DNA of 64,000 nucleotides from Clostridiales bacterium. Lineage in GTDB: Bacteria; Bacillota; Clostridia; Oscillospirales; Acutalibacteraceae. The position numbers and the translations under genes were made by a program. The stretch is from assembly GCA_024680655.1 (NCBI GenBank), contig JAILBY010000026.1:4109-68108 (forward strand). Reading direction: 5' to 3'. Below, one piece after another: positions 21,678 to 42,064 of the stretch. Below the pieces are notes generated by a model, which searched no databases, was not told the origin of the DNA, and worked only from the letters and a program-made list of their open reading frames with translations. Positions within the stretch are counted from its first letter, which is position 1. Every line of letters begins with the position of its first letter.

Positions 21678-21686
21678 ACTTGCTTT

Positions 21687-22109: not shown

Positions 22110-22870
22110 AAAAAGTATATTTAATTCTTGGGGCTTCTTCTGATTTGGGAATAGAGCTGATAAAACAACTGAATGGTGAGAATCCGACTGATGAAAAAGT
22201 TTTTATCGCCCATTATCATTCATCAAAAGAAAAACTGGAGCAGATTTCTCTGAATCAAAATAGAAGTCTTGTTTGCGTCAAGTCAGACTTGGGTGATATG
22301 GCTTCTGTGGACCTTCTTATTGAGAAAGTTCGTTCTTGTTGCGCAGAATATAACATGGACGCGCCAACTCATGTTGTTCATCTCGCTGCGGAGCCATTCC
22401 GTTACATGAAGTTAAAGGAATTTTCACGCGACAGGCTTATACATAATATTGATGTTCAAGTCAGCTCTTTTGCAAAAATTATGCAGTCTTTTCTTCCTTC
22501 AATGGCAAAAAGAAAGCGGCACGACAAAGTTGTGGTTATGTTAACAAGCTATCTATTGAATGCTTCGCCAAAACTTGTGCTTGATTACGTAGTGACAAAA
22601 TCCGCTTTGCTTGGCCTAATGAGGAGCATTGCGGCTGATTATCTTGGGAAGGGGGTGAATATAAATGCTCTTTCCCCTTCAATGATTGAAACAAAATTTT
22701 TGCAGAATGTTGATGAAAGGATCGTTCAGATGATTGCAGAAGGCAGTCCTGAGAAACGAAATGCAACTGTTGCAGATGTTGTGCCTGTCATTCAATTTCT
22801 TCTATCTGATGCGGCAAATTATTTGCATGGCGCAAACTTAAATGTAACATATGGGGGGGGATTTAGATGA
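22106..22870 (+). CDS. Short-chain dehydrogenase/reductase
   Basis: ILGASSDLGIELIKQL glycine loop, catalytic YVVTKSAL (YxxxK). ATGA overlap with the MaoC gene. Confidence 0.8.
   Translation: MKKVYLILGASSDLGIELIKQLNGENPTDEKVFIAHYHSSKEKLEQISLNQNRSLVCVKSDLGDMASVDLLIEKVRSCCAEYNMDAPTHVVHLAAEPFRYMKLKEFSRDRLIHNIDVQVSSFAKIMQSFLPSMAKRKRHDKVVVMLTSYLLNASPKLVLDYVVTKSALLGLMRSIAADYLGKGVNINALSPSMIETKFLQNVDERIVQMIAEGSPEKRNATVADVVPVIQFLLSDAANYLHGANLNVTYGGGFR
22853..22860 (+). repeat. Poly-G tract (G8) at the SDR 3' end and MBOAT ORF 5' end
   Basis: atgggggggga. The SDR frame reads tat ggg ggg gga ttt aga tga. The overlapping MBOAT ORF frame reads atg ggg ggg gat. Confidence 0.95.
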
Positions 22871-22904
22871 TAAAAAAGTTTTGCTTTCGAGGTTCCTTTT
22901 TATA

Positions 22905-24494
22905 ATGCATTTTCTTTATAATCTCCTAAAATTCATCGTAGATGATTTCTCCATTATGTCTTTTTGGTTTTGGACATGTCTCGCTGCGTTTGCTGTGATT
23001 TATTACACTGTGGGCAAGAGACTTCGCGTTCAGTGGATTCTGCTTTTGCTTGCAAGCCTGTTTTTTTACAGAGCAAACTGTTCCACAAAACTTATGCTCT
23101 GGATGCTTGTTCCTGTCTGCTTGACTTATCTTGTGGCGCTCGTAATAAACAACTTGCAAGGCCTGAGGCGAAGCTTGCTTCTTTTCTGCGCGGTTGCGGC
23201 AAGTGTCGCGTTCCTTGTCTATTTTAAGGAGCGGAATTTCTTTATAGTTACTCATAACGCGCTTGCATGCGTGTTTAACTTTGGACATTGGGAAAAAGTA
23301 AATATTGCGGCTCCACTTGGAATCTCTTATCTTATTTTGATGCTCGTAAGTTACACGCTTGATGTTTCGTGGGGACTTGTCAAACCGCAAAAAAATCCGC
23401 TTAAATTTCTTTTGTATGTGATTTATTTTCCTATTACAACTTCAGGACCGATTACAAGATATGTCGAAGTGGAGAATCAACTTTTTGCAGAACACAATTT
23501 TGATTATGACCGCTTTTGTTTCGGAGTCCAGCGGGTTGTCTGGGGAATGTTCAAGAAAATGATAGTCGCCGATAGAATTGGTCTAATCGTTGGAACAATT
23601 TATGGCAATTGGGAAAATTACACAGGGTTCACGCTTGCGATTGGGCTTCTTGCATACACATTGCAAGTTTATACAGACTTCTCTGGTTGCATAGACATGG
23701 CGTTGGGCGCGTCTCAAATTCTTGGTATAAATTTGCCTGAAAATTTCCGCCAGCCGTTCTTTTCATCAAGTCTTTCTGAAATTTGGCGAAGATGGCACAT
23801 GACATTGGGTTTTTGGGTAAAAGACTATATCCTCTATCCGATGTTAAAGTCTCGGTTAATTCAACAGTTCTCTAATTTCTTAAAAACAAGGCTTGGGAAG
23901 AAAAATCGTTATGCAAAACTTATTCCAACTTGGTGCGGAATGTTGGTTGTTTGGTTCACGGTAGGATTCTGGCACGGTGGATCTTGGAAATATATATTTG
24001 GCGGCGGGCTTTTTTTCTTCATTATGATTGCCGGCGGTCAATTGTTGGAACCGTTGTTTGCTTGGCTTATAAGAATAATGAGAATCAGGACCGAAACTGC
24101 AAGTTGGCGTTTGTTCCATAGGTTAAGAACGTTCTTCCTTTTTGCAGTGGCTGTTTCATTCCAACGGGCCCCATCTTTTAAAACTGGTTTGTGCATGTGG
24201 AAACGTGTTTTTGTCGAATTCAATCCATGGATTTTTGTTGATGGAACCTTGTTTAATATTGGTCTTGATGCCAAAGATTTCTTCGTGTTGCTCTTCGGAG
24301 GGATGATTATGCTGTTTGTTGAACTTGGCGAACATGGGAACAAGGCCGAATCTATAAGTATGAGGCGATGGATTGCTGGTCAAAATATAGCGTTTCGTTG
24401 GATAATCTATTTGGGGCTTGTGTTTAGCATAATTATTTTTGGAATGTATGGCCCAGATTATAATGCGAAATCATTCATTTACGCAGGTTTTTAG
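22905..24494 (+). CDS. MBOAT-family membrane O-acyltransferase (DltB/AlgI-like)
   Basis: Conserved His regions SLSEIWRRWHMTLGFWVKDYILYP and VGFWHGGSW; polytopic. The start is uncertain: the ORF is open from ATG 22851, and other candidates are ATG 22905 and ATG 22956. Confidence 0.85.
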   Translation: MHFLYNLLKFIVDDFSIMSFWFWTCLAAFAVIYYTVGKRLRVQWILLLLASLFFYRANCSTKLMLWMLVPVCLTYLVALVINNLQGLRRSLLLFCAVAASVAFLVYFKERNFFIVTHNALACVFNFGHWEKVNIAAPLGISYLILMLVSYTLDVSWGLVKPQKNPLKFLLYVIYFPITTSGPITRYVEVENQLFAEHNFDYDRFCFGVQRVVWGMFKKMIVADRIGLIVGTIYGNWENYTGFTLAIGLLAYTLQVYTDFSGCIDMALGASQILGINLPENFRQPFFSSSLSEIWRRWHMTLGFWVKDYILYPMLKSRLIQQFSNFLKTRLGKKNRYAKLIPTWCGMLVVWFTVGFWHGGSWKYIFGGGLFFFIMIAGGQLLEPLFAWLIRIMRIRTETASWRLFHRLRTFFLFAVAVSFQRAPSFKTGLCMWKRVFVEFNPWIFVDGTLFNIGLDAKDFFVLLFGGMIMLFVELGEHGNKAESISMRRWIAGQNIAFRWIIYLGLVFSIIIFGMYGPDYNAKSFIYAGF

Positions 24495-24505
24495 GAGATG
24501 ATTTT

Positions 24506-25969
24506 ATGGCTGATAGGTCAAAGATAGAAAACCTTGCAAAGTGCTCCATGTTTTTGATTTTTTTCGTTATTTTATTTTGGTTTTGCAATAAAGTTTTTAT
24601 TCTAAAAAGAAATGATGGAATAACTCCAATGCAGAATTTTTATGCACAAAAGCAAAATACTGTGGATGTGCTTTTTTGTGGCCCAAGTCTCATGGGAGAA
24701 CTTGGAATGGATGAATTGTGGTATGACTATGGAATAGCTGGTTATAATTTATGGGGAAGTGGCGAACCATTTTGGAATTGCTATTTTGGATTAAAAGAGG
24801 CGTTGAAAAGTCAAAAACCAAGAGTTGTGGTTTTGGAAGTTTCCCCTGCCTCCTATCAGTTTGAGTATTCAGACAATACAGGGCAATTGGTTAATACGCA
24901 AGGTATGAAATTCGGCAAAAACTTTCTTGATGCAATAAGAGTTTCAACTCCAAAAGAGAAATATCTTGAGCTTTTTTTTGGAATACAGACTTTCCATTGG
25001 AGATTTAAAGAACTCTCTAGAGATGATTTTTTGCATTTCACTTGGATTCAGGATTGTATAACTGATAAAGGCAGCTTTCATTATTATCATAATAATGCAA
25101 AAATGGACTTGACGGATATATCTAGTATTGTAGAATTTAAGAATTTATATCCAAAAGCAGAAGAATATCTTCGTCTGTTTATAGAATATGCTCAGCAGAG
25201 AAAGATTCAAGTGTTGCTAATAAAAACTCCTTCTATCAACAGGATGGCTGAAGCACCGTTTTATAATTGTGTTTCTAAAATTGCAGATGAATATGGGGTC
25301 AAATTCATAGATACTAATCGTGTATCCGATGAAATTGGTTTTGAGCTAGATGATTCCGCTGATGGAGGTCATATAAATGTTCGTGGAATGTGGAAGTGTA
25401 CAAGCTACATAGGAAATGTCTTGCGAAATGAATACAATGTTCCTGATAGGCGTGGGGAGAAACAGTATATCTCGTATGAAAAATACACAGAAAAATGTCA
25501 TAAAAAACATATTGTGGAGATGAAAGACAAAAAAGGTTATGCTGCCGAAGTACTTCGCTCAACTCAAAAACCGTACCTTGATTTGTATGTTCCAATTTAT
25601 TTTAGTTCATATAATTACAACGCACCCGTTTTTGTAAGATGTGGACTTTCTGAACCTGATAATGATTTTTCATGGACGGATAGAAGGTTTCTGCGTATGG
25701 TTTGCAATTTCCCAAAAAACTGCATGGGAAAAGACTTGAAGGCGAAATACAACTTGGCTCAAATTTTCAATGGTAATCAGAGGATTATTGTGTATGTGAA
25801 TAATAGCCGTGTCTTTGACAAAAAACTTTCAAACGGTGAGAATTTAGAATTTCATTTTAGTTTGCCGGCAGATAGCGTTACAGCCCACATAATGTTGGAA
25901 TTTCCAAATTTATTAAATAATGACAAAAAAAATGCATTAGCAATCAAAAATGTTGTTTTTACGGAGTGA
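24506..25969 (+). CDS. Membrane-anchored DltD/SGNH-like extracytoplasmic acyltransferase partner
   Basis: N-terminal TM helix. Block-I-like VDVLFCGPSLMGE, late DSADGGHINVRG (DxxH-like). It lies immediately downstream of the MBOAT gene. Confidence 0.55.
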   Translation: MADRSKIENLAKCSMFLIFFVILFWFCNKVFILKRNDGITPMQNFYAQKQNTVDVLFCGPSLMGELGMDELWYDYGIAGYNLWGSGEPFWNCYFGLKEALKSQKPRVVVLEVSPASYQFEYSDNTGQLVNTQGMKFGKNFLDAIRVSTPKEKYLELFFGIQTFHWRFKELSRDDFLHFTWIQDCITDKGSFHYYHNNAKMDLTDISSIVEFKNLYPKAEEYLRLFIEYAQQRKIQVLLIKTPSINRMAEAPFYNCVSKIADEYGVKFIDTNRVSDEIGFELDDSADGGHINVRGMWKCTSYIGNVLRNEYNVPDRRGEKQYISYEKYTEKCHKKHIVEMKDKKGYAAEVLRSTQKPYLDLYVPIYFSSYNYNAPVFVRCGLSEPDNDFSWTDRRFLRMVCNFPKNCMGKDLKAKYNLAQIFNGNQRIIVYVNNSRVFDKKLSNGENLEFHFSLPADSVTAHIMLEFPNLLNNDKKNALAIKNVVFTE

Positions 25970-30098: not shown

Positions 30099-30151
30099 AA
30101 TGATGTTTTGTGTTTATATATATGAGAGTAAATAAAATGATAGGAGGTTTC

Positions 30152-32548
30152 ATGATTTGCTTGTGTGATAGAAAAAGCTTAAGAAAATTTGTTCCCGATT
30201 TTGGTGTTTTGTTGTTCCTTTTTGTTTTCTCTGCGTTTTACTATTTCAAAATGAATGTTTGGCCTGTAAAACTAGCTGGAGACTTGGGGGATGGGTGGTT
30301 ATCGCCTATTTATTCGACGTACAACGTGTTCCGACATGGTGAACTTTCACTGTGGAACCCATACTTGTGGTGTGGCATGTCCGCAGCTGGACATACATGT
30401 CAACAAACTTTATACCCTATTTATTTGTTTCTATTTGTTTTAAGATTGCCCTCGTTTGTAACTTTTGCCACCATAGTATTTACTATTCATTTTTTTATTT
30501 TAAGTGCGGGACTTTATTTCTTTTTACGTGTTAATAAAGTGTCATGGATTTCTGCCTTTGTCGCTGTTATGATGGCAATAACTTCGGCGGGGTTAACATA
30601 CCAGTCTTGGTGGGCTTATCTTTTTACGGGGTTTGTTTGGCATCCTTTTGTCCTTGCTTTTTCCACGTTGGCCGCTAGACAAGACATCCATGTGGAAAAG
30701 TATGGATGGCAAAAAATGCTTTCATATATAGCACTTTCTGGTATCTGTTTGGGATTGTCAGGACTAGCATGTCCCGGACAGTCCCTTTTGGTAAATGTTT
30801 TGACTGTTTGTATATTATGGTTCTGCCTTGTGTGTGCTGATTTTTCTAAGAGAAATCTTGTAAATTTGACTTTTAGGTTTCTTGCAATTGGATTTTTTTC
30901 GCTTGCCGTTTGTGCACCTGTATTGTTTTTAACAATCGAATATTCAAAATATTGTGTTCGATATGTTCCTGAAATGGGATGGGTCTGGCCTGGAGAAAAA
31001 TTAACTATTGGAGTTTTTTTAAAGCATAATATTAATTTTTCAAGTTTTCAAAACTTGTTTCAGTTCCCTGAGGCTGTGGATTACGCAGGTGGTAGATTTG
31101 GTCCCGTTAATTTTTTGCTCTCTTTGTTTGGTGTCTGTGGTTTCTTTGTAAAAGTTAAAGAGGGGGTTAAGCCTATTCAACTTTTTCAAAAGGTCTTGTT
31201 TGCATGTGTGATTTTATATGCAAGCGATTTTGTGTTGCCCTATATCGCTTGGTATGTTCCGTATCTTAACGCCATTAGAGAACCATTTTTATATGTTCCT
31301 TACTTAATTCTTCCATTGACTTTTTTTGCTGGGGTTGGATTGGACGCTATGATTGCTTGCAAAGCTTCTCCTGTTAGACTTGCAAAATGTGTTTCGTCAC
31401 CAGTGGTTATGTTTTTTTTGCTTTTCATTGTTTTGTGCAGTACGATGGTGAATTATACTGGTGCAGGAAGGGGCAGGGCTAATATACCAATCATCTTGTT
31501 GTTGGTTGTTTCGTTTGTGTTTACAGTCGACAGATTTGATTCTGTTGCATTAATTAAATTATTGCGTAAGTTTGTTTTTTCTTGTCTTTTGGCGGCGTCT
31601 GTATTTGTTCAAATGAAAAATGTTTCCGGTTGGTTTTCTGCATTTTCGACAAATAATATCGTAGAGAGTAAATTGATAAGGGTGCTTGATAATTTGACAA
31701 GGATAGAAGATTTTGTCTCGATGAAAGATGGCATTGAAAGAAAATCTTTTGGACGTTTTTCTTCTTTTTGCACAAGAGCATGGAGTAGCAATAGTCTTTC
31801 TATTAATAGAATGAGAGATGTCTCGGGGTATATGAATCCCGCGATGGGGGCAGCTATTGTGCTGAATGGTTGTGACTTAAAAACAAGGGCCGTTCTTGAG
31901 GATATTAGATATTTTTTTGTTGCTGAAGATAAGACCGATGAACTCTATGATTGGTCGCATGGAGTTGTGAAAACTGAATTGGGAGCACAATGCTTAGGCA
32001 CTATTGATTTATTCCCTGATTACGACTCTGACAAATTGAAAACTTTTTCTGTATGGAAAGTAAAAACAAACGGGACTGCATGGCTTGTTAATGACATAAG
32101 GCCTGCTCCTTTCTTTGGAAAAATGAGCAAGTCGAAAGGTGACAAGATGCAAGAACTTCTTAAGCAAAATCTCATAGACTATGAGCGGACGGCTTGGATT
32201 TCAGAAGATAGTTTAGTTAAAATAGAGGCTGGCCATAATAATTGGAATGTTGATGTTCTTTCATATAATAGCAACAGTGTAGAGTATTCTGTCCAGTCAG
32301 AGAAAGCCTCTTTGTTTGTTACATCGGAATTATGGTATCCCGGCTGGGATATGTATGTTGACGGCAAAAAGACAAAAACTTTGCAAGTCAATTTGTGCTT
32401 TAGGGGATGTGAGGTTCCATCTGGAAGTCATGTAATCAGAATGGTTTACCATCCGAGGTTGTTTTTTGTGGGGATTGTTTTTTTGTTTTTGATTATTGTT
32501 TTTTTTGTTATAATGCTTGTTGTAAAGCGTGAGGAGGGCAGCGAATGA
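30152..32548 (+). CDS. YfhO-family polytopic membrane glycosyltransferase-like protein
   Basis: Many TM helices. C-terminal YfhO-type signature LWYPGWDMYVDGKKTKTLQVNLCFRGCEVPSGSHVIRMVYHP and a final TM helix. Start set to ATG 30152, 4 nt after AGGAGG (30142-30147); the ORF is open from 30110. Confidence 0.7.
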   Translation: MICLCDRKSLRKFVPDFGVLLFLFVFSAFYYFKMNVWPVKLAGDLGDGWLSPIYSTYNVFRHGELSLWNPYLWCGMSAAGHTCQQTLYPIYLFLFVLRLPSFVTFATIVFTIHFFILSAGLYFFLRVNKVSWISAFVAVMMAITSAGLTYQSWWAYLFTGFVWHPFVLAFSTLAARQDIHVEKYGWQKMLSYIALSGICLGLSGLACPGQSLLVNVLTVCILWFCLVCADFSKRNLVNLTFRFLAIGFFSLAVCAPVLFLTIEYSKYCVRYVPEMGWVWPGEKLTIGVFLKHNINFSSFQNLFQFPEAVDYAGGRFGPVNFLLSLFGVCGFFVKVKEGVKPIQLFQKVLFACVILYASDFVLPYIAWYVPYLNAIREPFLYVPYLILPLTFFAGVGLDAMIACKASPVRLAKCVSSPVVMFFLLFIVLCSTMVNYTGAGRGRANIPIILLLVVSFVFTVDRFDSVALIKLLRKFVFSCLLAASVFVQMKNVSGWFSAFSTNNIVESKLIRVLDNLTRIEDFVSMKDGIERKSFGRFSSFCTRAWSSNSLSINRMRDVSGYMNPAMGAAIVLNGCDLKTRAVLEDIRYFFVAEDKTDELYDWSHGVVKTELGAQCLGTIDLFPDYDSDKLKTFSVWKVKTNGTAWLVNDIRPAPFFGKMSKSKGDKMQELLKQNLIDYERTAWISEDSLVKIEAGHNNWNVDVLSYNSNSVEYSVQSEKASLFVTSELWYPGWDMYVDGKKTKTLQVNLCFRGCEVPSGSHVIRMVYHPRLFFVGIVFLFLIIVFFVIMLVVKREEGSE

Positions 32549-35227: not shown

Positions 35228-35653
35228 ATGAGTGACATTATTCCTGTTTTTGATCAAGTTAAGTTTTTTGAGTTTAATCAGAGGGGCGACAATCGAGGGC
35301 ATCTTGTTGTTGTTGAGGGTGCGCAAGATGTCCCCTTTGAGATAAAAAGAGTTTTTTACATCTATGGTTCTGACCGTGATGTTGTCCGCGGACAGCATGC
35401 AAATCGTAAGAGCGAATTTGTCTTGATAAATGTTTCTGGAACAAGCAAGGTACGGGTTAAGGATGGAAAGGATAATGAGGCCATATTCTCTTTGAATAGA
35501 CCTCATACTGGAATATATCTTCCTAAAATGATATGGAAAGACATGTATGATTTTAGTGAAGATTCGGTTTTGTTGTGTCTTGCAAGTGAGCATTATGATT
35601 CTGAAGAGTATATCCGTAACTATGATGATTATGTGAAAGAGGTCTGTAAATGA
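35228..35653 (+). CDS. FdtA/QdtA-type sugar 3,4-ketoisomerase (cupin)
   Basis: GDNRGHLVVVEGAQDVPFEIKRVFYIYG...VRGQHANRK...LASEHYDSEEYIRNYDDY matches the WxcM/FdtA cupin pattern. Confidence 0.85.
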   Translation: MSDIIPVFDQVKFFEFNQRGDNRGHLVVVEGAQDVPFEIKRVFYIYGSDRDVVRGQHANRKSEFVLINVSGTSKVRVKDGKDNEAIFSLNRPHTGIYLPKMIWKDMYDFSEDSVLLCLASEHYDSEEYIRNYDDYVKEVCK

Positions 35654-35657
35654 TATT

Positions 35658-36605
35658 ATGAAACTCTCAATTATTATCCCTGTTTATTACAATCAAGACA
35701 ATCTCAAACCTCTATATTATGACATAAAGAAGAAAGTCATTGACATTGTTGACTACGATTATGAAATCGTAATGGTCAATGATGGCTCAAAAGATGGCAG
35801 TTATTCTGTCATGAAGCAACTTGCAGAAATCGATAAAAATATCAAAATTATTAGCCTATCCCGGAATTTCGGCTCACACTCTGCGATTTTGTGTGGGCTT
35901 GCCCACTGCTCAGGGGATTGCGCGGTTGTAAAAGCGGCGGATTTGCAAGAACCTACAGAAATGATTCTTGAAATGGTTGGAAGCTGGAAAAAAGGAAACA
36001 ATGTAGTTCTTGCGGTTCGTGGTGGCAGGGAAGAAAAGAAAAGTCAGACATTCTTTGCAAATCTCTATTATTGGATGGTTCGCAAGACTTCATTCCCTAA
36101 TATGCCCAAAACAGGTTTTGACATTTATCTGATTGACCGCAAAGTTATAAATGTTTTGAGCATGCTTGATGAAATAAACAGCGCGCTGACAGGTCAGATT
36201 CTATGGAGCGGGTTTAAAACTGATTGCGTATATTATACACGATTGGAAAGAAAAATTGGGAAAAGTCGTTGGACGTTAAAGAAAAAAATTAGGCTCGTTA
36301 CAGATACATTGTTTAGTTTTTCGACACTGCCTATAAAGCTTGTTTCTGTGGTTGGATTCCTTGCGTTTACAGGCTCTGTTATATGGGCAATTTGCCTTAT
36401 TATTTCAAAACTGTTGGGGATTATTCCGGTAAGTGGATGGACGACACTTATCGTTTTCAATTTGTTCAGTTTTGGCGTGATTATGCTTACGCTCGGTATT
36501 CTTGGTGAATACTTATGGCGAACTTTTGACGCGACGCGCAAGCGTCCTCCATATATCGTTGAGGAATCCAATATGGATGAGGAAGAAAAATCATGGAAAA
36601 AATAA
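35658..36605 (+). CDS. ArnC/GtrB-like GT2 polyprenyl-phosphate glycosyltransferase
   Basis: LSIIIPVYYNQDNL, YEIVMVNDGSKDGS, SRNFGSHSAILCGL, plus two C-terminal TM helices. Confidence 0.85.
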   Translation: MKLSIIIPVYYNQDNLKPLYYDIKKKVIDIVDYDYEIVMVNDGSKDGSYSVMKQLAEIDKNIKIISLSRNFGSHSAILCGLAHCSGDCAVVKAADLQEPTEMILEMVGSWKKGNNVVLAVRGGREEKKSQTFFANLYYWMVRKTSFPNMPKTGFDIYLIDRKVINVLSMLDEINSALTGQILWSGFKTDCVYYTRLERKIGKSRWTLKKKIRLVTDTLFSFSTLPIKLVSVVGFLAFTGSVIWAICLIISKLLGIIPVSGWTTLIVFNLFSFGVIMLTLGILGEYLWRTFDATRKRPPYIVEESNMDEEEKSWKK

Positions 36606-37687
36606 TGCCAAACCGCCTCGACAGAGGTTTTTATATGTACCAAAAGGAATTTGAGATAAAGGCTCTCGAAGTCCTGCGTTCCGGCTGGTACATTCTTGGA
36701 AACGAAGTGAAGCAGTTTGAAAACGAGTTCGCTTCTTTTACTGGTTCAAAGCACTGCGTGGGACTGGCAAGTGGTCTTGACGCGCTTTGGATAGCTTTCC
36801 GTGTTCTTGGGATTGGCAAGGACGATGAAGTAATCGTTCAGGGGAACACATATATTGCGAGCGTTATGGGCATTACAATCAACGGGGCGACGCCAGTCTT
36901 TGTTGAACCAGATGAATACTTCAATATAGATGCCTCAAAAATCGAAGAAAAGATAACTCCAAAAACAAAGGCGATTCTTGTAGTTCATCTTTACGGACAA
37001 GCTTCAAATATGAAACCCATAACTGACTTATGTAAAAAATACAATCTCCGTCTTGTGGAAGACTGCGCGCAGTCGCATGGTGCCTGCTTTGACGGGAAAA
37101 TGACAGGAACGTTTGGTGACATTGGGTGCTTTTCTTTTTATCCTTCAAAGAACCTTGGCGCTTTTGGCGACGCCGGCGCTATTACAACTGACGATGAAAA
37201 ACTTGCTGAAGCGGTAAGAATCTTCAGAAATTATGGAAGCGAAAAGCGCTATCATAATAAGGTTGTCGGGGCAAATTCACGCCTTGACGAATTGCAAGCT
37301 GGACTTCTTAGAGTTCGACTCACTCATATAAAAGAGCTTGCTGAAGAAAAGCAGAAAATTTGCGGCCGTTATCTGGAAGAATTACATAATGATAAAATTC
37401 AGCTCCCTAAAATTCGTGATGGTGCGACACATATTTGGCATCAGTTTGTAATTCGTTCAAAACAACGCGACGAGCTTATGAAATATCTTGACGAAAAAGG
37501 AATCGGGACGATAATTCATTATCCAATTCCACCGCACCTTTCGGAAGCGTACTCATATCTTGGAATGAAAGGAGGTTCTCTCCCCGTTACAGAGTTGTAT
37601 GCGAAAGAAGTGCTTTCGATTCCTCTTTACAATGGCATGACAGAAGAAGAGCAAGCTCGTGTAATAAAAGCTATTAATGTTTTTTAA
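36593..37687 (+). CDS. DegT/DnrJ/EryC1-family PLP-dependent sugar aminotransferase
   Basis: GNEVKQFENEFASFTG, GLDALW, and FSFYPSKNLGAFGDAGAITT (PLP lysine). Confidence 0.9.
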   Translation: MEKIMPNRLDRGFYMYQKEFEIKALEVLRSGWYILGNEVKQFENEFASFTGSKHCVGLASGLDALWIAFRVLGIGKDDEVIVQGNTYIASVMGITINGATPVFVEPDEYFNIDASKIEEKITPKTKAILVVHLYGQASNMKPITDLCKKYNLRLVEDCAQSHGACFDGKMTGTFGDIGCFSFYPSKNLGAFGDAGAITTDDEKLAEAVRIFRNYGSEKRYHNKVVGANSRLDELQAGLLRVRLTHIKELAEEKQKICGRYLEELHNDKIQLPKIRDGATHIWHQFVIRSKQRDELMKYLDEKGIGTIIHYPIPPHLSEAYSYLGMKGGSLPVTELYAKEVLSIPLYNGMTEEEQARVIKAINVF

Positions 37688-38141
37688 GACAATAAAGATG
37701 AACAGAAAAACGCTGGATGAATTTATACAATTTATAAAGTTTTGCATTGTAGGCGTTACGAACAATGTGATTTTTTATGTCGTTAACATTGCCATTCTTT
37801 TTCTATTTAATGAGCGTGCTTTTGAATGGGATTACATGATCGCAAACATCGCGGGCTTTCTAATCAGCGTTCTCTGGTCGTTTTATTGGAACAACAAGTT
37901 CGTCTTCAAGGCGGGCGAAAGTGAGAAGCGTTCTCTTTTGAAGAGTTTGCTTAAGACATATATGGCTTATGGGTTTACAGGAGTTGTTTTAAACAATGTT
38001 CTTTCTTATGTGTGGATTGAGGTGTTTGGAGTTTCCAAATTTATTGCTCCACTTATAAATCTGTTTCTTACAGTTCCTGTAAATTTCCTAATCAATAAAC
38101 TATGGGCTTTTAGAACAACAAAAAATGGAGGAGAACAATGA
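37677..38141 (+). CDS. GtrA-family small membrane protein (candidate lipid-linked sugar translocase)
   Basis: FIKFCIVGVTNNVIFYVVN and NKLWAFR; 4 TM helices. Alternative start ATG 37698. Confidence 0.8.
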   Translation: MFFKTIKMNRKTLDEFIQFIKFCIVGVTNNVIFYVVNIAILFLFNERAFEWDYMIANIAGFLISVLWSFYWNNKFVFKAGESEKRSLLKSLLKTYMAYGFTGVVLNNVLSYVWIEVFGVSKFIAPLINLFLTVPVNFLINKLWAFRTTKNGGEQ

Positions 38142-38172
38142 TTCATCCAACTGCTGATAGGAGAGATAGATA

Positions 38173-38712
38173 ATGGCTAAAGAAATAAAGAGAGAAAATC
38201 TTTGTGGCAAATATGTAACATTGAGAGAAGTGTCTGTTGATGATGCAGATTTCATTCTTGCTCTTAGATGCGATGAAAAAAAAGCGAGGTTTCTTAACAA
38301 AATTAACAATGACAAAAATGCGCAGGTTGCCTACATAAAAAGATATCTTGCGACCACTGATGAATGGTATTTTATCAGCGAAAGTAAGGACGGCAGGAAA
38401 CTTGGGGCTATCAGAATATATGATTTGAGGAGCGACAGTTTTTCTTTTGGAAGCTGGGTTATGATAGACGGAGTTACTATGTCTGAAGCCTTTGAAACTG
38501 ATTATCTTACTAGAATGTACGGATTTAATGTACTTGGGTTTAACAAGAATCATTTTGATGTGCGAAAAGATAATGAAAAAGTCTTAAAGTATCATCAATT
38601 CCTGGGGGCGAAAAAAGTAGGAGAAACGGAACTTTGTTATTTGTATGAAGTTACCAAGAACGAATTTGTAAAAAGAGCAAACCTTATGTGGAAGTTGTCA
38701 GAGTCCAAATAA
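38173..38712 (+). CDS. GNAT-family N-acyltransferase
   Basis: 179 aa. AGGAG lies 9 nt upstream. RimJ/L-like N-terminus VTLREVSVDDADFILALR and a beta-strand core. Confidence 0.6.
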   Translation: MAKEIKRENLCGKYVTLREVSVDDADFILALRCDEKKARFLNKINNDKNAQVAYIKRYLATTDEWYFISESKDGRKLGAIRIYDLRSDSFSFGSWVMIDGVTMSEAFETDYLTRMYGFNVLGFNKNHFDVRKDNEKVLKYHQFLGAKKVGETELCYLYEVTKNEFVKRANLMWKLSESK

Positions 38713-38756
38713 AAACTGCTTAAAAACTATAAATATATATGTAAGGAGCAATAATT

Positions 38757-39047
38757 ATGAAAGAAAAAATTAAAGCATTAGTAATCGACTCTTTGAATGA
38801 GTCAAAAGAAACAAATAATCTCGATTTTGAGATTAATGACGAGACAATTCTTTTGGGGGAAAACGCCGTAATGGATTCATTCGACTTTGTTTCATTCGTT
38901 TCTACTCTTGAAGAAAAGATTGCAGATGCTTTTGGCAAATCAATAACTGTTGTAAGCGAGAAGGCGTTCTCAAAGAAATACAGTCCGTTCAAAACAATTG
39001 ACCGTATTTCTGATTACATCATCGAACTTTTGAATGAGGCTGAGTAA
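38757..39047 (+). CDS. Acyl carrier protein-like
   Basis: 96 aa. AAGGAG lies 8 nt upstream. LLGENAVMDSFDFVSFVSTLEEK carries a DSx phosphopantetheinylation-type motif. Confidence 0.7.
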   Translation: MKEKIKALVIDSLNESKETNNLDFEINDETILLGENAVMDSFDFVSFVSTLEEKIADAFGKSITVVSEKAFSKKYSPFKTIDRISDYIIELLNEAE

Positions 39048-39740
39048 ATGATTATCCTTATAACAGGTACAAGCCGGGGCATAGGAAAATATCTTGCAGA
39101 AAAGTTTCTTGCTGCAGGTCATACAGTAATCGGTTTCTGTCGTAGCGAATGTGATATTCATAATGAGAATTTTTATCATTTTACAGCCGATGTTACCGAT
39201 GAAAAAGGTGTTGTAAAAGCTCTTGGTGAAGTACGGAAGCAGTTTGGTTGTATTGATGTTCTTGTCAATAATGCCGGAATTGCTTCCATGAATCATTTCT
39301 GTCTTACACCCCTTGAAACTGCAAAGCGGATTATGAATGTGAACTTCTTCGGAACTTTCCTTATGACTCGTGAATGTGCAAAACTTCTTCGCAAGAGCAA
39401 GAATGCGAGAATCATTAATTTTAGCACCGTGGCCGTTCCTCTCAACCTTGAAGGGGAGGCTTCTTATGCGGCATCTAAATCTGCGATTGAAACTCTCACT
39501 CGCACAACTTCGAAAGAACTCTCTGGTTATGGTATTACGGTAAACGCTGTTGGTCCTGTGCCGATTAAAACGGCTCTTATTGCAGGCGTGCCGGAAGATA
39601 AAATTCAGAACTTGCTTTCTCATCAGGCAATCAAACGCTTTGGTGAACCAGAAGATGTTTATAATGTAATTGATTTTTATATCAAGCCAGAGAGCAACTT
39701 TATTACAGGTCAGATTATGTATCTTGGAGGGATTAATTAA
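39048..39740 (+). CDS. SDR, 3-oxoacyl-ACP reductase (FabG)-like
   Basis: ILITGTSRGIGKYL, NNAGI, YAASKSAIE (YxxxK). Confidence 0.88.
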   Translation: MIILITGTSRGIGKYLAEKFLAAGHTVIGFCRSECDIHNENFYHFTADVTDEKGVVKALGEVRKQFGCIDVLVNNAGIASMNHFCLTPLETAKRIMNVNFFGTFLMTRECAKLLRKSKNARIINFSTVAVPLNLEGEASYAASKSAIETLTRTTSKELSGYGITVNAVGPVPIKTALIAGVPEDKIQNLLSHQAIKRFGEPEDVYNVIDFYIKPESNFITGQIMYLGGIN

Positions 39741-41065
39741 TGTCTTGCATTGACTTTATTATAGATGACATAAAATCTTTTGGAGAAGAAATTGCAATCG
39801 TCACTGATGGAAAAGAGTATACCTACAAAGATTTGCTTTCTGAGTATGAAAATGCAGTTGCTTTTCTTGATGAAAATAAAGTTCCTGACTGTTCGGTTGT
39901 AGCGCTTCGTGGTGAGTTCTCTCCTAAAACAATCGGCATGATGCTTGCGATTATTGGAAAGAATTGCATATATGTTCCAGTTTCTACGGCTGTTAAAGAA
40001 CCTGTAAAATATATCGAGATTTCAGAAGTTCAGTTCTATATCGACGGTTTAACTGTTACGAAATACGACACGATGCCAAAACATCAGATTCTGACTGGCC
40101 TTATTAACGAAAATCATCCAGGACTTGTTTTATTTTCTTCTGGAACAACAGGTGACCCAAAAGCGGCTGTTCATAATCTTGTTCCCATGCTTGAGAAATA
40201 CAAGGCAAAGGGTAAGAAAATAAAGTCACTTGCATTTTTGTTGTTTGACCATATTGGCGGTTTTAATACTGTTATGTACAACATTTCAAACGGAGGCATG
40301 CTTGTAACCCTTAAGAACAGAAGCCCGGAAGAAGTTGCTTCATATATTGAAAAATATAAGCTAGAGTTGCTCCCGACCTCTCCGTCTTTCCTCAATATGA
40401 TTTTGTATTCTCACATTTATGAAAAGTATGATTTTTCTTCACTAAAAATTATCAGCTACGGAACAGAACCTATGCCGGAATCTACGCTTAAAATGATGCA
40501 TCAGATATTCCCGGATGTAAAACTTAAGCAAACTTATGGACTTTCAGAAGTCGGCATTATGCGCACTAAGTCTGAAAGTTCTGATTCTCTATGGCTTAAA
40601 GTTGGTGGCGATGAAGATCATCAGATTAAGATTGTGGATGGAATTCTTTTTATTAAGTCAAAGATGTCTATGCTCGGTTATTTGAATGCTCCAAGTCCTT
40701 TTGATGAAGATGGTTGGATGAATACAAAGGATCGTGTTGAACAGAAAGGCGAATACATAAAAATTCTTGGTCGTGTGTCAGAACTTATAAATGTTGGTGG
40801 CGAGAAGGTTTATCCTGCTGAAGTTGAAAGCGTTTTGCTTGAAGTTCCGGGGGTAAAGGACGCAATCGTTGGTAAAATGCCGAATCCTATTCTTGGAAGT
40901 GTTGTTACCTGCAAGGTTGCCGCCGATGAAGGACATGATTTGACAGAGCTCAAGAAGGCAATACAAAAGCATTGTACTGAACGTTTGGAGAAATTCAAGA
41001 GGCCAGTGAAGATTGAGTTTCGGGAATCTTCGTTCAATACTGCAAGATTTAAAAGATTACGATAA
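39740..41065 (+). CDS. AMP-dependent synthetase/ligase (acyl-ACP or acyl-CoA ligase, DltA-like size)
   Basis: Adenylation motifs LFSSGTTGDPKAAVH, SYGTEPM, DGWMNTKDRV, NVGGEKVYPAEVE. Its start shares a base with the SDR stop. Confidence 0.9.
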   Translation: MSCIDFIIDDIKSFGEEIAIVTDGKEYTYKDLLSEYENAVAFLDENKVPDCSVVALRGEFSPKTIGMMLAIIGKNCIYVPVSTAVKEPVKYIEISEVQFYIDGLTVTKYDTMPKHQILTGLINENHPGLVLFSSGTTGDPKAAVHNLVPMLEKYKAKGKKIKSLAFLLFDHIGGFNTVMYNISNGGMLVTLKNRSPEEVASYIEKYKLELLPTSPSFLNMILYSHIYEKYDFSSLKIISYGTEPMPESTLKMMHQIFPDVKLKQTYGLSEVGIMRTKSESSDSLWLKVGGDEDHQIKIVDGILFIKSKMSMLGYLNAPSPFDEDGWMNTKDRVEQKGEYIKILGRVSELINVGGEKVYPAEVESVLLEVPGVKDAIVGKMPNPILGSVVTCKVAADEGHDLTELKKAIQKHCTERLEKFKRPVKIEFRESSFNTARFKRLR

Positions 41066-41078
41066 TGGTTTGATAAAA

Positions 41079-41250
41079 ATGAAGTACATTTACAAAAGAA
41101 CAAATGATTTGACGGAGAATGAGATACAAGAAATTTGCTCGGTTTTTGAAACTGTTTTTGCAGGTATTGAAAAAAAACTGTGACGTATTTCAAAAACGAG
41201 ACTGTGAAGTCCTTTATGTAAATTCAGCAGGCTGCGGTAAAAAGTTTTAA
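41079..41250 (+). pseudogene. Truncated and frameshifted 5' remnant of an unidentified gene next to the IS relic
   Basis: ATG 41079 gives MKYIYKRTNDLTENEIQEICSVFETVFAGIEKKL, stopping right after an A8 tract (41170-41177). An alternative frame continues CDVFQKRDCEVLYVNSAGCGKKF and then ends. Confidence 0.35.
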
Positions 41251-41268
41251 TGCGGGCGTGTTCCGCAA

Positions 41269-41295
41269 GCAGCTGGCAGCTGCCGTTTCTTTTCT
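41269..41295 (+). terminator. Short GC hairpin plus T-rich tail (weak intrinsic terminator candidate)
   Basis: gcagct-ggc-agctgc (41269-41283) followed by cgtttcttttct. Confidence 0.3.
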
Positions 41296-41320
41296 GAATA
41301 TAAACTATTGCTGAAGATAG

Positions 41321-41886
41321 TGTACAATAAAGTTCGCAATTTGGGGTAGGAAAAAGCCATTGAAAATTCCAAAATGTTGGTGACCAAACTAACAAAGAGG
41401 AAAAGACAATGGCCAAGAAGAGCGATACCACATTTTTCGAAAAAAACTACTGGATTTTGTAACCGAAAAGGATCCGATGCTGGAGATGCTTCAGTGGGTG
41501 ATGGACAAGTTCATGGAGATTGAAGTCGCCCACAAAACGGGAGCTGGAAAAGGGGTTCACTCAAGAAAGCGAGCAGGCGCTCATTCAGGTCGTGCAGGAA
41601 TGCTGGCTGAACGGAGTCTCCACCCGCAAGATTTCAAGCACGAACACGCTTGAGCGGCTCAACCGCGAAATCCGCAGACGTTCGTCCGTTGTCGGCATTT
41701 TTCCTTCAACGGATTCTTACATCAGGCTGATAACAAGCTATCTGCTTGAGTATTCAGAGGACTGGCAGACTGAGAGGAGCTACATGAATGCCGGCTCAAT
41801 AAAAGTTCAAAAGGAGATTCTGTTTAACGCAGCATGATGGATTTTTTGGCTTTTTTCAAAAACGAAATTGCGAACTAAACTTGACA
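41321..41886 (+). mobile_element. IS256-family insertion sequence relic with internal deletions and recognisable terminal inverted repeats
   Basis: Transposase fragments: MAKKSDTTFFEK(frameshift at A7)LLDFVTEKDPMLEMLQWVMDKFMEIEVAHKTGAGKG, ALIQVVQECWLNGVSTRKI, and STNTLERLNREIRRRSSVVGIFPSTDSYIRLITSYLLEYSEDWQ. Left agttcgcaattt (41331-41342) and aaaaagcca (41351-41359) are mirrored by tggcttttt (41847-41855) and aaattgcgaact (41865-41876). Confidence 0.75.
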
Positions 41887-42064
41887 TAGTCAAAAGGTGG
41901 CTCTTGAGACGTTTTGAAAACTTTTTTTAGGCTAGTCCTAGACTGGCTGAAAAAAAATTTTTTCGGAAGACTCTGCATGGAAGTTGATTAAAAATGATTT
42001 ATGAGGTAAACTAATAGTTCGAGGTGTTTTTTTTTAATATTAGTTATAACCTAGACAATGCTTT

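What the first reader, a model, noticed from the sequence alone, without database searches (positions are those of the whole stretch)
38173..41065. ACP-dependent acyl-donor cassette (GNAT + ACP + FabG-like SDR + AMP ligase) next to the amino-sugar genes
Sugar N-acylations normally use acyl-CoA. Here a dedicated 96-aa carrier protein, an adenylating ligase and a ketoreductase-type SDR sit with a GNAT directly after the aminotransferase and GtrA genes. This suggests a short hydroxyacyl group (for example 3-hydroxybutyryl-like) is built or activated on the ACP and then transferred to the sugar amine. As I recall, a partial precedent exists in Vibrio cholerae O1. There an ACP-like RfbK and a ligase-like RfbL were proposed to act in tetronate N-acylation of perosamine, but such systems remain poorly characterised.
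Basis: partly seen in the sequence, partly recalled or inferred. Interest (0 to 1): 0.6.

Follow-up and report, generated by a model that had tools for sequence, protein, structure and literature searches.

The report
Acyl-carrier cassette feeding a sugar N-acyltransferase
Four adjacent genes in a gut or rumen Clostridia cell-wall sugar locus most likely build a small hydroxy-acid on their own carrier protein and attach it to the amino group of a rare 3-amino sugar; this is an untested variant of a way bacteria vary their surface sugars that has been proposed for several other species.

Summary
All four genes are real. The GNAT (38173-38712) is a full-length homologue of FdhC, the 3-hydroxybutanoyl transferase acting on dTDP-Fuc3N (PDB 5KTA, E 2.6e-23). 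The 96-aa ORF gets no Pfam hit, but it is an acyl carrier protein by profile search, invariant Asp40-Ser41 and a confident four-helix model. The SDR and the ligase keep their catalytic motifs.

ACP-SDR-ligase is a fixed, translationally coupled trio. It recurs beside amino-sugar genes in distant taxa, paired with different acyltransferases (GNAT, PglD-like LbH, AAC(3)-like, MBOAT). All 7 FdhC-like GNAT loci sampled have a small carrier-protein gene within two genes. Two carry the ligase trio and five carry KAS III plus ACP (four of them also a ketoreductase), the set tied genetically to N-3-hydroxybutanoyl-viosamine in Pseudomonas syringae.

The host MAG shows no ketoacyl synthase or thiolase, so a self-contained donor route makes sense.

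The acyl group is open: 3-hydroxybutanoyl, or 3-hydroxypropanoyl/4-hydroxybutanoyl made by mupirocin 'priming-cassette' chemistry.

The idea has published precedents, and this scan has noted similar cassettes about 98 times on other DNA. This is a new variant of a known, biochemically untested kind.

The parts
35228..35653 (+). FdtA/QdtA-type 3,4-ketoisomerase (141 aa); makes the NDP-3-keto-6-deoxyhexose
   Evidence: Pfam FdtA, E 1.9e-45
35658..36605 (+). GT2 polyprenyl-phosphate glycosyltransferase (PgfS/ArnC/GtrB-like, 315 aa); loads the finished sugar onto the lipid carrier
   Evidence: Pfam Glycos_transf_2. NCBIfam PgfS 217 bits and ArnC 145 bits, both below cut-off
36593..37687 (+). DegT/FdtB-type PLP aminotransferase (364 aa); makes the 3-amino sugar
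   Evidence: Pfam DegT_DnrJ_EryC1, E 6e-112
37677..38141 (+). GtrA-family membrane protein (154 aa); presumed flippase for the lipid-linked sugar
   Evidence: Pfam GtrA_DPMS_TM, E 1e-20
38173..38712 (+). FdhC-type GNAT sugar N-acyltransferase (179 aa)
   Evidence: PDB 5KTA FdhC, E 2.6e-23 over residues 10-165. Pfam Acetyltransf_3. GGAG ribosome-binding site
38757..39047 (+). Divergent acyl carrier protein (96 aa); predicted phosphopantetheine site Ser41; family motif VSEKAFSKKYSPF
   Evidence: 1,333 cluster representatives at E<=1e-10. No Pfam hit
39048..39740 (+). FabG-like SDR (230 aa); TGxxxGIG, Arg32, NNAG and Tyr140/Lys144 conserved
39740..41065 (+). Short ANL-family adenylating ligase (441 aa); presumed loader of the ACP
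   Evidence: Invariant SSGTTGxPK, TYGLSE, Asp331, GR344-345 and Lys438
30110..32548 (+). YfhO-like GT-C membrane protein (812 aa); candidate extracytoplasmic transferase for the lipid-linked sugar (context)
   Evidence: Pfam YfhO, E 2.9e-11, C-terminal part only
41520..41837 (+). Fragment of a Mutator/IS256-family transposase; marks the downstream edge of the cassette
   Evidence: Pfam Transposase_mut, E 3e-15, last 49 profile positions only

Best explanation
The ligase adenylates a small acid and loads it as a thioester on Ser41-phosphopantetheine of the 96-aa ACP. The FabG-like SDR reduces it with NAD(P)H to a C3-C4 hydroxyacyl-S-ACP. The FdhC-type GNAT then transfers that acyl group to the 3-amino group of the NDP-3-amino-3,6-dideoxyhexose (Fuc3N or Qui3N) made by the FdtA-like and DegT enzymes. 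The N-acylated sugar is then passed to undecaprenyl phosphate by the GT2, flipped (GtrA) and added to a wall polymer by a GT-C/YfhO-type enzyme.

My estimates for the acyl group: 3-hydroxybutanoyl (acetoacetate loaded, 3-keto reduced) about 0.4. An omega-hydroxyacyl group made as in the mupirocin/thiomarinol priming cassette about 0.35. Something else about 0.25.

Shown here: the gene identities, the carrier-protein fold and serine, the FdhC homology, the conserved gene linkage.
Inferred: every catalytic step, the acid, and the use of acyl-ACP rather than acyl-CoA.
For: (1) The GNAT is an FdhC homologue (5KTA, E 2.6e-23). FdhC/QdhC are the named 3-hydroxybutanoyl transferases for Fuc3N/Qui3N (PMC4869667).

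(2) The GNAT is linked to carrier proteins in 7 of 7 sampled loci. The window and L016 carry the ligase trio. L014, L015, L022, L023 and L024 carry KAS III plus a 72-73-aa ACP, with a 246-248-aa ketoreductase in four of the five. Three of the five small ORFs pass Pfam PP-binding. The KAS III/ACP/KR set is the P. syringae vioS/acp/vioR design, whose glycan carries N-(3-hydroxybutanoyl)viosamine and whose vioR mutant loses the sugar (PMC3927599).

(3) The trio is a fixed unit. Order is always ACP-SDR-ligase, with 0-4-nt overlaps, in L001, L003, L004, L009, L011, L013 and L016. SDR identity is 55-63% and ligase identity 50-54% across distant taxa. It always sits beside aminotransferases and N-acyltransferases, never with fatty-acid genes alone.

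(4) The same trio at 90-93% amino-acid identity pairs with a PglD-like LbH instead of a GNAT in L009. The trio therefore behaves as a swappable donor module.

(5) The SDR and ligase keep their catalytic motifs. An AcpS-type PPTase is present in the genome.

(6) In this 93%-complete MAG I found no ketoacyl synthase, KAS III or thiolase, so no housekeeping 3-hydroxyacyl thioester is evident.

(7) A 44%-identical ligase in a Burkholderia plasmid sits directly upstream of an SDR gene and a PKS gene (one 93-aa ORF of no detected family before it, one small ORF between SDR and PKS). That fits a carrier-loading rather than CoA-forming family.

(8) GNAT-ACP complex prediction: weak support. Score 0.59, best of 3 controls 0.00. 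The mark was reached by 58 of 80 solved complexes and 2 of 110 mismatched pairs, but a score of 0.60 or under was seen in only 7 of those 80 and in both mismatches that passed. Runs agree in >=97% of contacts and partner pLDDT is >=88. My own alignments were used, so these counts hold only roughly, and many ACP-enzyme complexes are solved, so likeness may contribute.
Against: No biochemical data exist for any member of this trio.

FdhC itself was crystallised with CoA, and (from my memory of Salinger et al. 2016, not re-read here) assayed with 3-hydroxybutanoyl-CoA. O-antigen descriptions that name fdhC list no ACP genes (PMC4869667). An FdhC-type enzyme therefore can work without a dedicated ACP.

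No acetoacetate:ACP ligase is known, and the host shows no obvious source of acetoacetate.

RmlA and RmlB were not found above cut-off in the MAG, so the nucleotide-sugar supply is unverified.

The ACP gets no Pfam hit.

Gene linkage cannot tell acyl-ACP use from acyl-CoA use.
Confidence: 0.65

Rival explanations
1. Same architecture, different chemistry. As with MacpD/MupQ/MupS in mupirocin biosynthesis, the ligase adenylates the free carboxylate of malonyl-CoA (or succinyl- or methylmalonyl-CoA) and loads it on the ACP. The SDR then reduces the CoA-thioester end to a primary alcohol. The product is 3-hydroxypropanoyl- (or 4-hydroxybutanoyl-) ACP, which the GNAT transfers.
For: It is the only biochemically worked-out system with exactly these three parts: ACP, adenylating enzyme and an SDR annotated as a 3-oxoacyl-ACP reductase. 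It makes 3-hydroxypropionyl-ACP from malonyl-CoA (PMC10098928, citing Walker et al. 2020). It explains why the SDR always travels with the ligase and without a ketosynthase, and it needs only universal metabolites. The MAG has a 484-aa acyl-CoA carboxyltransferase but no thiolase. Y. ruckeri O1-specific genes include a PP-binding protein, an AMP-dependent synthetase and a 3-oxoacyl-ACP reductase (PMC5552943). From memory, that O-antigen carries an N-4-hydroxybutanoyl group. A 44%-identical ligase lies directly upstream of an SDR gene and a PKS gene in Burkholderia.
Against: I could not obtain MupQ/MupS/MacpD sequences, so homology is untested. Gene order differs (ACP-ligase-SDR in mupirocin). 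The Burkholderia SDR is only 29% identical to this one and its upstream 93-aa ORF shows no similarity to this ACP. The GNAT's homologue FdhC and its sister loci point to 3-hydroxybutanoyl. No succinyl-CoA ligase was found in the MAG.
Confidence: 0.3
2. The GNAT uses a cytoplasmic acyl-CoA (3-hydroxybutanoyl-CoA or acetyl-CoA), as FdhC does in vitro. The ACP-SDR-ligase trio serves another acceptor in the locus, for example one of the AT3 or MBOAT O-acyltransferases.
For: FdhC binds CoA (PMC12273574). In one Treponema locus the trio follows an MBOAT and a 362-aa protein with no sugar N-acyltransferase in between, a Dlt-like layout (L006). The window holds two AT3 proteins and an MBOAT.
Against: All 7 sampled loci of this GNAT clade have a carrier-protein gene within two genes of the GNAT, in two unrelated module types. 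The window's MBOAT cassette has its own carrier protein at 21462-21656. No thiolase and no convincing 3-hydroxyacyl-CoA dehydrogenase were found in the MAG. The GNAT-ACP pair scored 0.59, against 0.00 for the best control (weak support; counts given under the best explanation).
Confidence: 0.12
3. The ligase is DltA-like and loads an amino acid or a 2-oxo/2-hydroxy acid (alanine, serine, pyruvate or lactate, glycerate). The sugar then carries an aminoacyl, lactoyl or glyceroyl amide.
For: DltA aligns over the whole ligase length (7VHV, E 2.7e-15). Such N-acyl groups occur on 3- and 4-amino sugars (general knowledge).
Against: The best PDB matches are fatty-acyl and aryl-CoA ligases, not amino-acid adenylases. 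An obligatory SDR is not explained by amino-acid loading. The FdhC homology points to a hydroxyacyl group.
Confidence: 0.08

Closest known systems
FdhC (Acinetobacter nosocomialis O12, E. coli O103, Salmonella O55; PDB 5KTA) and QdhC
   Same: GNAT-fold sugar N-acyltransferase of about 180 aa, encoded with FdtA and FdtB. It puts 3-hydroxybutanoyl on dTDP-Fuc3N. The window protein aligns over residues 10-165 at E 2.6e-23.
   Different: No ACP, ligase or SDR genes are named in the O-antigen descriptions I read (PMC4869667), and (from memory) the enzyme was studied with acyl-CoA. Here, and in all 7 sampled relatives, a carrier-protein gene lies within two genes. The host is Gram-positive and uses a lipid-carrier side-chain pathway.
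Pseudomonas syringae viosamine island: vioS (KAS III), acp, vioR (3-oxoacyl-ACP reductase), vioB (LbH acyltransferase) (PMC3927599)
   Same: A private ACP plus ketoreductase supplies a 3-hydroxybutanoyl group to a dTDP-amino sugar. There is genetic support (the vioR mutant loses the sugar). The same KAS III-ACP-KR set sits next to this GNAT's relatives (L014, L015, L023, L024).
   Different: The window replaces KAS III with an adenylating ligase and the LbH transferase with a GNAT. Its ACP (96 aa) and SDR (230 aa) belong to different subfamilies. The sugar is a 3-amino, not a 4-amino, hexose.
Mupirocin/thiomarinol priming cassette MacpD + MupQ + MupS (PMC10098928; Walker et al. 2020)
   Same: Same three protein types acting together on a dedicated ACP to make a short hydroxyacyl-ACP. 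Biochemically demonstrated.
   Different: It feeds a polyketide/fatty-acid synthase, not a sugar. Gene order is ACP-ligase-SDR. Sequence relationship to this trio was not testable here.
Vibrio cholerae O1 RfbK (ACP) / RfbL (ligase) with RfbM, N, O for N-tetronyl-perosamine (PMC12208996)
   Same: A dedicated ACP and an adenylating ligase in a glycan locus, proposed to supply a hydroxyacyl group for sugar N-acylation.
   Different: From memory, that set also has an iron alcohol dehydrogenase, a LuxC/LuxE-like protein and an LbH transferase. None of these lie beside this cassette.
Flavobacterium psychrophilum wfpC-G (PMC6519341)
   Same: An O-antigen-specific ACP with a ketoreductase and an N-acyltransferase, proposed to deliver 3,5-dihydroxyhexanoyl from acyl-ACP to UDP-Qui2NAc4N. 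The glycan structure is known.
   Different: It uses two ketosynthases, no ligase, and a PglD-type LbH transferase.
[quoted passage not shown]
   Same: Same three annotations in the same order, inside an amino-sugar (pseudaminic acid) locus. Uncharacterised.
   Different: They are accompanied by luxE/luxC. Homology to this trio is not shown. The authors read them as fatty-acid synthesis or 'liposugar' genes.
DltABCD D-alanylation; LpxD; NodA/NodF (established knowledge)
   Same: Carrier-protein-bound acyl donors used to decorate envelope glycopolymers (Dlt) or to N-acylate a sugar amine (LpxD, NodA).
   Different: Different transferase folds (MBOAT, LbH, NodA) and acyl groups. The Dlt transfer is extracytoplasmic O-acylation.

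Membership tests
FdhC-type GNAT sugar N-acyltransferase | GNAT fold with full-length sequence similarity to FdhC | tested here: met
   5KTA, E 2.6e-23, residues 10-165 against 6-167. Pfam Acetyltransf_3
FdhC-type GNAT sugar N-acyltransferase | Encoded with a 3,4-ketoisomerase and a 3-aminotransferase for an NDP-3-amino-3,6-dideoxyhexose | tested here: met
   FdtA and DegT lie 0.5-3 kb upstream on the same strand. The same holds in L014, L016 and L022
FdhC-type GNAT sugar N-acyltransferase | Transfers 3-hydroxybutanoyl to dTDP-Fuc3N | not testable with these tools
   Needs an enzyme assay. RmlA/RmlB for dTDP-sugar supply were not found above cut-off in the MAG
Acyl carrier protein (PP-binding superfamily) | Four-helix bundle with the phosphopantetheine serine of a DSx motif at the start of helix II | tested here: met
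   Model pLDDT 92.5, helices 2-20, 41-59, 68-72 and 81-95. D40-S41 invariant in 26 sequences. DS aligned to ACP 2L4B at E 9.6e-5. Foldseek top hits are ACPs
Acyl carrier protein (PP-binding superfamily) | Match to Pfam PF00550 | tested here: not met
   No Pfam family even at E<=10. This is a divergent subfamily with its own VSEKAFSKKYSPF motif
Acyl carrier protein (PP-binding superfamily) | A phosphopantetheinyl transferase available in the genome | tested here: met
   ACPS-family ORF at C204:2290-2625, 59.8 bits. Actual modification is untestable here
Classical SDR, FabG-like ketoreductase | TGxxxGxG, NNAG and Ser-Tyr-Lys catalytic residues | tested here: met
   T6, G7, G11-I12-G13, N74-N75-A76-G77, Y140 and K144 invariant; S126 at least 90% conserved. 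Best PDB matches are FabG
Classical SDR, FabG-like ketoreductase | Equivalog of housekeeping FabG | tested here: not met
   TIGR01830 scores 158.9 bits against a cut-off of 297.75
ANL adenylate-forming enzymes | Core motifs (SSGTTGxPK, YGxTE-type, Asp of A7, hinge GR, A10 Lys) | tested here: met
   Invariant in 10 orthologues. Pfam AMP-binding plus AMP-binding_C
ANL adenylate-forming enzymes | Thiol acceptor is the ACP rather than CoA | not testable with these tools
   Only linkage supports it: fixed ACP-SDR-ligase unit, and a PKS-adjacent homologue
Mupirocin-type priming cassette (MacpD/MupQ/MupS) | ACP plus adenylating enzyme plus SDR encoded together | tested here: met
   Gene order differs
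Mupirocin-type priming cassette (MacpD/MupQ/MupS) | Sequence orthology to MupQ/MupS/MacpD and use of malonyl-CoA | not tested
   No reference sequences were reachable. pTML1 is not in the plasmid collection and the primary paper is not held
V. cholerae RfbKLMNO tetronate module | LuxC/LuxE-like reductase-synthetase and an iron alcohol dehydrogenase beside the ACP and ligase | tested here: not met
   Pfam scans of every ORF of at least 100 aa across the window found none
DltABCD-type system | MBOAT and DltD-like partner next to the ligase and carrier | tested here: not met
   Not adjacent here. The window's MBOAT (22851-24494) belongs to a separate FkbH cassette with its own carrier. A Dlt-like layout with this trio does occur in L006

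The most novel reading that the evidence does not exclude
FdhC-type GNATs natively take their acyl group from a protein-bound thioester rather than from acyl-CoA. The ACP-SDR-ligase trio is a portable, phylum-hopping 'donor module' that any amino-sugar N- or O-acyltransferase (GNAT, LbH, AAC(3)-like, MBOAT) can plug into. This lets even bacteria without fatty-acid synthesis decorate surface sugars with hydroxyacyl groups. The trio's ACP family (more than 1,300 clusters at 50% identity) would then be a large, unannotated carrier-protein family dedicated to glycan tailoring.
Probability: 0.45. Interest if true: 0.6.

Novelty: new variant of a known kind. Interest (0 to 1): 0.45.

Why it matters
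Non-acetyl N-acyl groups (3-hydroxybutanoyl and similar) are common serotype-defining epitopes on O-antigens, capsules, flagellin glycans and wall polymers. Where the acyl donor comes from has almost never been shown. This locus joins a structurally characterised transferase family (FdhC) to a compact three-gene donor unit, and natural 'swap' variants exist (KAS III in place of the ligase, LbH in place of the GNAT). That makes a clean in-vitro test possible: acyl-ACP against acyl-CoA, and acetoacetate against malonyl-CoA. A positive result would allow annotation of thousands of 'hypothetical' 96-aa genes and 'fatty acid-CoA ligase' genes in glycan loci. It would also give glyco-engineers a portable module for installing hydroxyacyl groups.

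Tried and rejected
Pfam and NCBIfam on the 96-aa ORF: no hit. I had to use a family profile, a fold prediction and a structure search instead.

Pattern scan of genome contigs with the ACP alignment: only 4 loci. The look-up of encoding contigs was more productive.

I first took the host for a Treponema, because the nearest ACP and GNAT homologues carry Treponema/Spirochaetia names. I rejected this: the MAG has Spo0A and no FlaA hit, although the FlaA search rang in no control genome either.

Search for RmlA/RmlB in the MAG: only weak paralogues. The nucleotide carrier of the sugar is therefore unverified.

Attempts to reach MupQ/TmlQ sequences failed: pTML1 accession not in the plasmid collection, Walker et al. 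2020 not held. The FdhC structure paper is also not held. What I say about its acyl-CoA assays is from memory.

Literature searches for a characterised ACP-dependent FdhC, or for this trio, found only genome-survey mentions.

A fatty-acid scavenging (AasS-like) role was considered and dropped: the trio never sits with lipid genes in the loci examined.

The promoter/terminator scan shows no + strand terminator-like site between the GNAT start (38173) and the ligase end (41065). Weak terminator-like matches upstream (36385-37618) lie inside the GT2 and DegT genes. Promoter-like counts are at chance level.


Full report
OBSERVATION. The region 35228-41065 is one + strand gene string with tiny gaps. 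In order it holds:
- an FdtA-type ketoisomerase;
- a GT2 whose best curated matches are polyprenyl-phosphate glycosyltransferases (PgfS, ArnC; both below cut-off);
- a DegT aminotransferase;
- GtrA;
- a GNAT (38173-38712);
- a 96-aa ORF (38757-39047);
- a 230-aa SDR (39048-39740);
- a 441-aa AMP-binding enzyme (39740-41065).

The GNAT and the 96-aa ORF each have a Shine-Dalgarno sequence. ACP/SDR abut and SDR/ligase overlap by one base. No + strand terminator-like site lies between the GNAT start and the ligase end; the weak matches upstream sit inside the GT2 and DegT genes. The string ends at a transposase fragment (41520-41837). The coordinates and gene calls of the finding are therefore correct.

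IS THE 96-AA ORF A CARRIER PROTEIN?
- The ORF has 125 homologues down to 44% identity, a few of them named 'acyl carrier protein' or 'Carrier domain-containing' by their sources.
- An alignment of 26 homologues shows invariant Asp40-Ser41, plus a family-specific block VSEKAFSKKYSPF.
- A profile of that alignment hits a solved ACP (2L4B) at E 9.6e-5, with the DS motif in register.
- The AlphaFold model is confident (pLDDT 92.5). It is a four-helix bundle with Ser41 at the N-terminus of helix II.
- The top 28 Foldseek matches are all carrier proteins, though no E-value is below 0.02 for so small a fold.
- An exhaustive profile search finds 1,333 cluster representatives at E<=1e-10, nearly all single-domain proteins of 91-105 aa.
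- The ESM Atlas places its nearest clusters in Campylobacterota and Pseudomonadota. That is a lead only.

I conclude that it is a real ACP of a large, poorly annotated subfamily. The genome has an AcpS-type transferase.

THE OTHER THREE PROTEINS. The GNAT is the informative one. Its only strong PDB match is FdhC (5KTA), at E 2.6e-23 over nearly the full length. FdhC and QdhC are the named 3-hydroxybutanoyl transferases for Fuc3N and Qui3N in E. coli O103, Salmonella O55, Hafnia and Acinetobacter (PMC4869667). The structure paper is cited in PMC12273574.

The SDR keeps TGxxxGIG, Arg32, NNAG and Tyr140/Lys144, and resembles FabG most. It falls well below the FabG equivalog cut-off. The ligase keeps all ANL core motifs, including the A10 lysine. 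Its best PDB matches are fatty-acyl and aryl-CoA ligases, and DltA aligns end to end.

HOST. The nearest homologues carry Treponema/Spirochaetia MAG names. The window's own assembly, however, is a 1.79-Mb MAG in 253 contigs, 93% complete. It has Spo0A and no FlaA hit, although the FlaA search rang in no control genome. It is therefore a small-genome Clostridia-type bacterium. The ACP family was found in only 4 of 400 other genomes sampled across its phylum, and in none of the sampled genomes of its family, order or class. The cassette is thus an accessory element, probably exchanged horizontally.

THE TRIO IS A PORTABLE UNIT. In every locus fetched, the order is ACP-SDR-ligase with 0-4-nt overlaps. 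SDR identity is 55-63% and ligase identity 50-54% even in Atribacteria and other distant taxa. The neighbours are always amino-sugar genes, but of different pathways, and with different transferases:
- WbpB/WbpE-like genes with LbH transferases, between flagellin genes (L001);
- NeuB and a CMP-sugar synthetase-type cytidylyltransferase with an AAC(3)-like acyltransferase (L003);
- DegT with a PglD-like LbH (L009-L013);
- an MBOAT plus a 362-aa protein in a Dlt-like layout (L006);
- loci with an extra KAS III and ketoreductase (L008, L011).

The trio in L009 is 90-93% identical to the window's, yet sits behind a PglD-like LbH rather than a GNAT. The donor module and the transferase are therefore exchanged independently.

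THE GNAT CLADE IS ALWAYS NEXT TO A CARRIER PROTEIN. I sampled the genomic context of six homologues spanning 50-71% identity.
- L016 has the same layout as the window: FdtA-GT2-GtrA-GNAT-ACP-SDR-ligase.
- L014, L015, L022, L023 and L024 instead have KAS III, a 72-73-aa ACP and, in four of the five, a 246-248-aa ketoreductase directly upstream of the GNAT. Three of the five small ORFs pass Pfam PP-binding.

That makes 7 of 7 loci with a carrier-protein gene within two genes of the GNAT, in two unrelated module types. On a GNAT tree the two ligase-type loci form one supported clade (99/95). With midpoint rooting this clade sits among the KAS III-type loci.

KAS III plus ACP plus KR is exactly the P. 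syringae vioS/acp/vioR set. There the glycan carries N-(3-hydroxybutanoyl)viosamine, and deleting vioR abolishes the modified sugar (PMC3927599). The straightforward reading is that this GNAT clade receives a 3-hydroxyacyl group from an ACP, and that in the window's lineage a ligase-loaded module replaced the condensing-enzyme module.

The host fits this reading. No ketoacyl synthase, KAS III or thiolase was detected in the MAG, and only marginal Rossmann-only hits to 3-hydroxyacyl-CoA dehydrogenase. Neither malonyl-ACP chemistry nor 3-hydroxybutanoyl-CoA is therefore evident, with the caveat of 93% completeness.

A GNAT-ACP complex prediction gave weak support. The score was 0.59 against 0.00 for the best of 3 controls. 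The mark was reached by 58 of 80 solved complexes and 2 of 110 mismatches. Scores of 0.60 or under were seen in only 7 of those 80 and in both passing mismatches. Runs agree in >=97% of contacts and partner pLDDT is >=88. My own alignments were used.

WHICH ACID? This remains open.

Model A is ligase plus classical ketoreduction. It needs acetoacetate and gives 3-hydroxybutanoyl-ACP, which matches FdhC and the sister loci. But no acetoacetate:ACP ligase is known, and the host shows no source of acetoacetate.

Model B came from a lead in this scan's earlier notes, which I checked in the literature. [quoted passage not shown] This is the only worked-out system with the same three parts. It explains why the SDR is obligatory in the absence of a ketosynthase. 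Several observations are compatible with it:
- a 44%-identical ligase on a Burkholderia plasmid sits directly upstream of an SDR gene and a KS-AT-DH-KR-ACP-TE synthase gene;
- the MAG has one acyl-CoA carboxyltransferase;
- Y. ruckeri O1-specific genes include a PP-binding protein, an AMP-dependent synthetase and a 3-oxoacyl-ACP reductase (PMC5552943).

Against model B: I could not get MupQ/MupS sequences, the gene order differs, and the Burkholderia SDR and upstream small ORF are not specifically related to the window's.

I put model A at about 0.4, model B at about 0.35 and other acids at about 0.25.

COMPARISON WITH WHAT IS KNOWN. The concept is not new. Dedicated ACPs for sugar N-acylation were proposed for three systems:
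- V. cholerae O1, RfbK/RfbL (PMC12208996);
- P. syringae, with genetic support;
- F. psychrophilum wfpC-G, where the authors state explicitly that a PglD homologue transfers 3,5-dihydroxyhexanoyl from an O-antigen-specific ACP (PMC6519341).

LpxD and NodA/NodF are textbook ACP-dependent sugar N-acylations. The triad 'ACP, 3-oxoacyl-ACP reductase, AMP-dependent synthetase' has been listed in Aeromonas and enterobacterial flagellin-glycosylation islands, and read there as fatty-acid or 'liposugar' genes (PMC7874193, PMC4875605). This scan has also noted similar cassettes about 98 times in other genomes.

What I did not find described in the papers I could search is the pairing of an FdhC-type GNAT with a private ACP module, the ligase-for-KAS III swap within one GNAT clade, or such a module in a Gram-positive Gtr/YfhO-type side-chain pathway of a host that seems to lack fatty-acid synthesis.

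VERDICT. This is a new variant of a known, though uncharacterised, kind, of moderate interest. Its main value is that it gives a clean, small system for settling donor identity for a structurally known transferase family.

Noticed in passing
whole MAG (G000): No ketoacyl synthase (PF00109), KAS III C-terminal domain (PF08541) or thiolase hit in a 93%-complete, 1.79-Mb Clostridia-type MAG. The organism may be a fatty-acid auxotroph. Only three weak PP-binding hits in the genome.
   Followed up: partly
whole MAG (G000); C72:1-8000: No RmlA or RmlB above the curated cut-offs anywhere. A second FdtA-like gene (44% identity) and a DegT (51% identity), with several 4,6-dehydratase-like SDRs, lie on contig C72 and may supply the NDP-4-keto-6-deoxyhexose.
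   Followed up: partly
window 19630-25969: A second, separate carrier-protein system: FkbH-like loader, PP-binding ORF at 21462-21656, MaoC dehydratase, SDR, MBOAT and a 487-aa protein with no Pfam hit. The locus thus holds two independent ACP-based acylation cassettes.
   Followed up: no
L006:5310-10305 (Treponema sp. MAG HAN028): The same ACP-SDR-ligase trio follows an MBOAT and a 362-aa protein with no Pfam hit. This is a Dlt-like arrangement suggesting extracytoplasmic O-acylation with the same donor. A ToxN toxin gene lies just downstream.
   Followed up: no
L013:8342-11886: Orphan five-gene island (LbH, ACP, SDR, ligase, 194-aa GNAT) with no sugar-pathway genes within 9 kb on either side. 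The 194-aa GNAT is unrelated to the FdhC-like one (E 0.019 for the homologous L005 protein).
   Followed up: partly
L009/L010:1-4000: The 90-93%-identical trio lies in a polysaccharide locus directly downstream of three tandem phage-type integrases and a RepA-like gene, behind a NusG-like gene. This hints at carriage on a mobile element.
   Followed up: no
L023:1287-3099 and L024:2162-3967: Two GNAT loci carry a second small PP-binding ORF and a 524-529-aa HAD-family protein (FkbH-like?) before the KAS III-ACP-KR-GNAT genes. This suggests a more elaborate acyl group there.
   Followed up: no
L020/L021 (two 7-Mb Bacillota genomes): The ACP-family match lies inside a 494-aa open frame and is followed by a 37%-identical ligase. 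No SDR hit falls within the 3.3-kb loci.
   Followed up: no
window 41066-41890: Only the last 49 profile positions of a Mutator/IS256 transposase survive, just after the ligase stop. A hairpin terminator-like site lies at 41269-41283.
   Followed up: partly
window 1-64000: Every ORF longer than 230 aa is on the + strand. The window is one very large wall-glycopolymer region. It includes two UDP-galactopyranose mutases, LicD, a CDP-glycerol glycerophosphotransferase-family (TagF-like) protein, two radical-SAM proteins, several multidomain GT2/GT4 enzymes, and an FnlA/CapE-like dehydratase with a UDP-GlcNAc 2-epimerase.
   Followed up: partly
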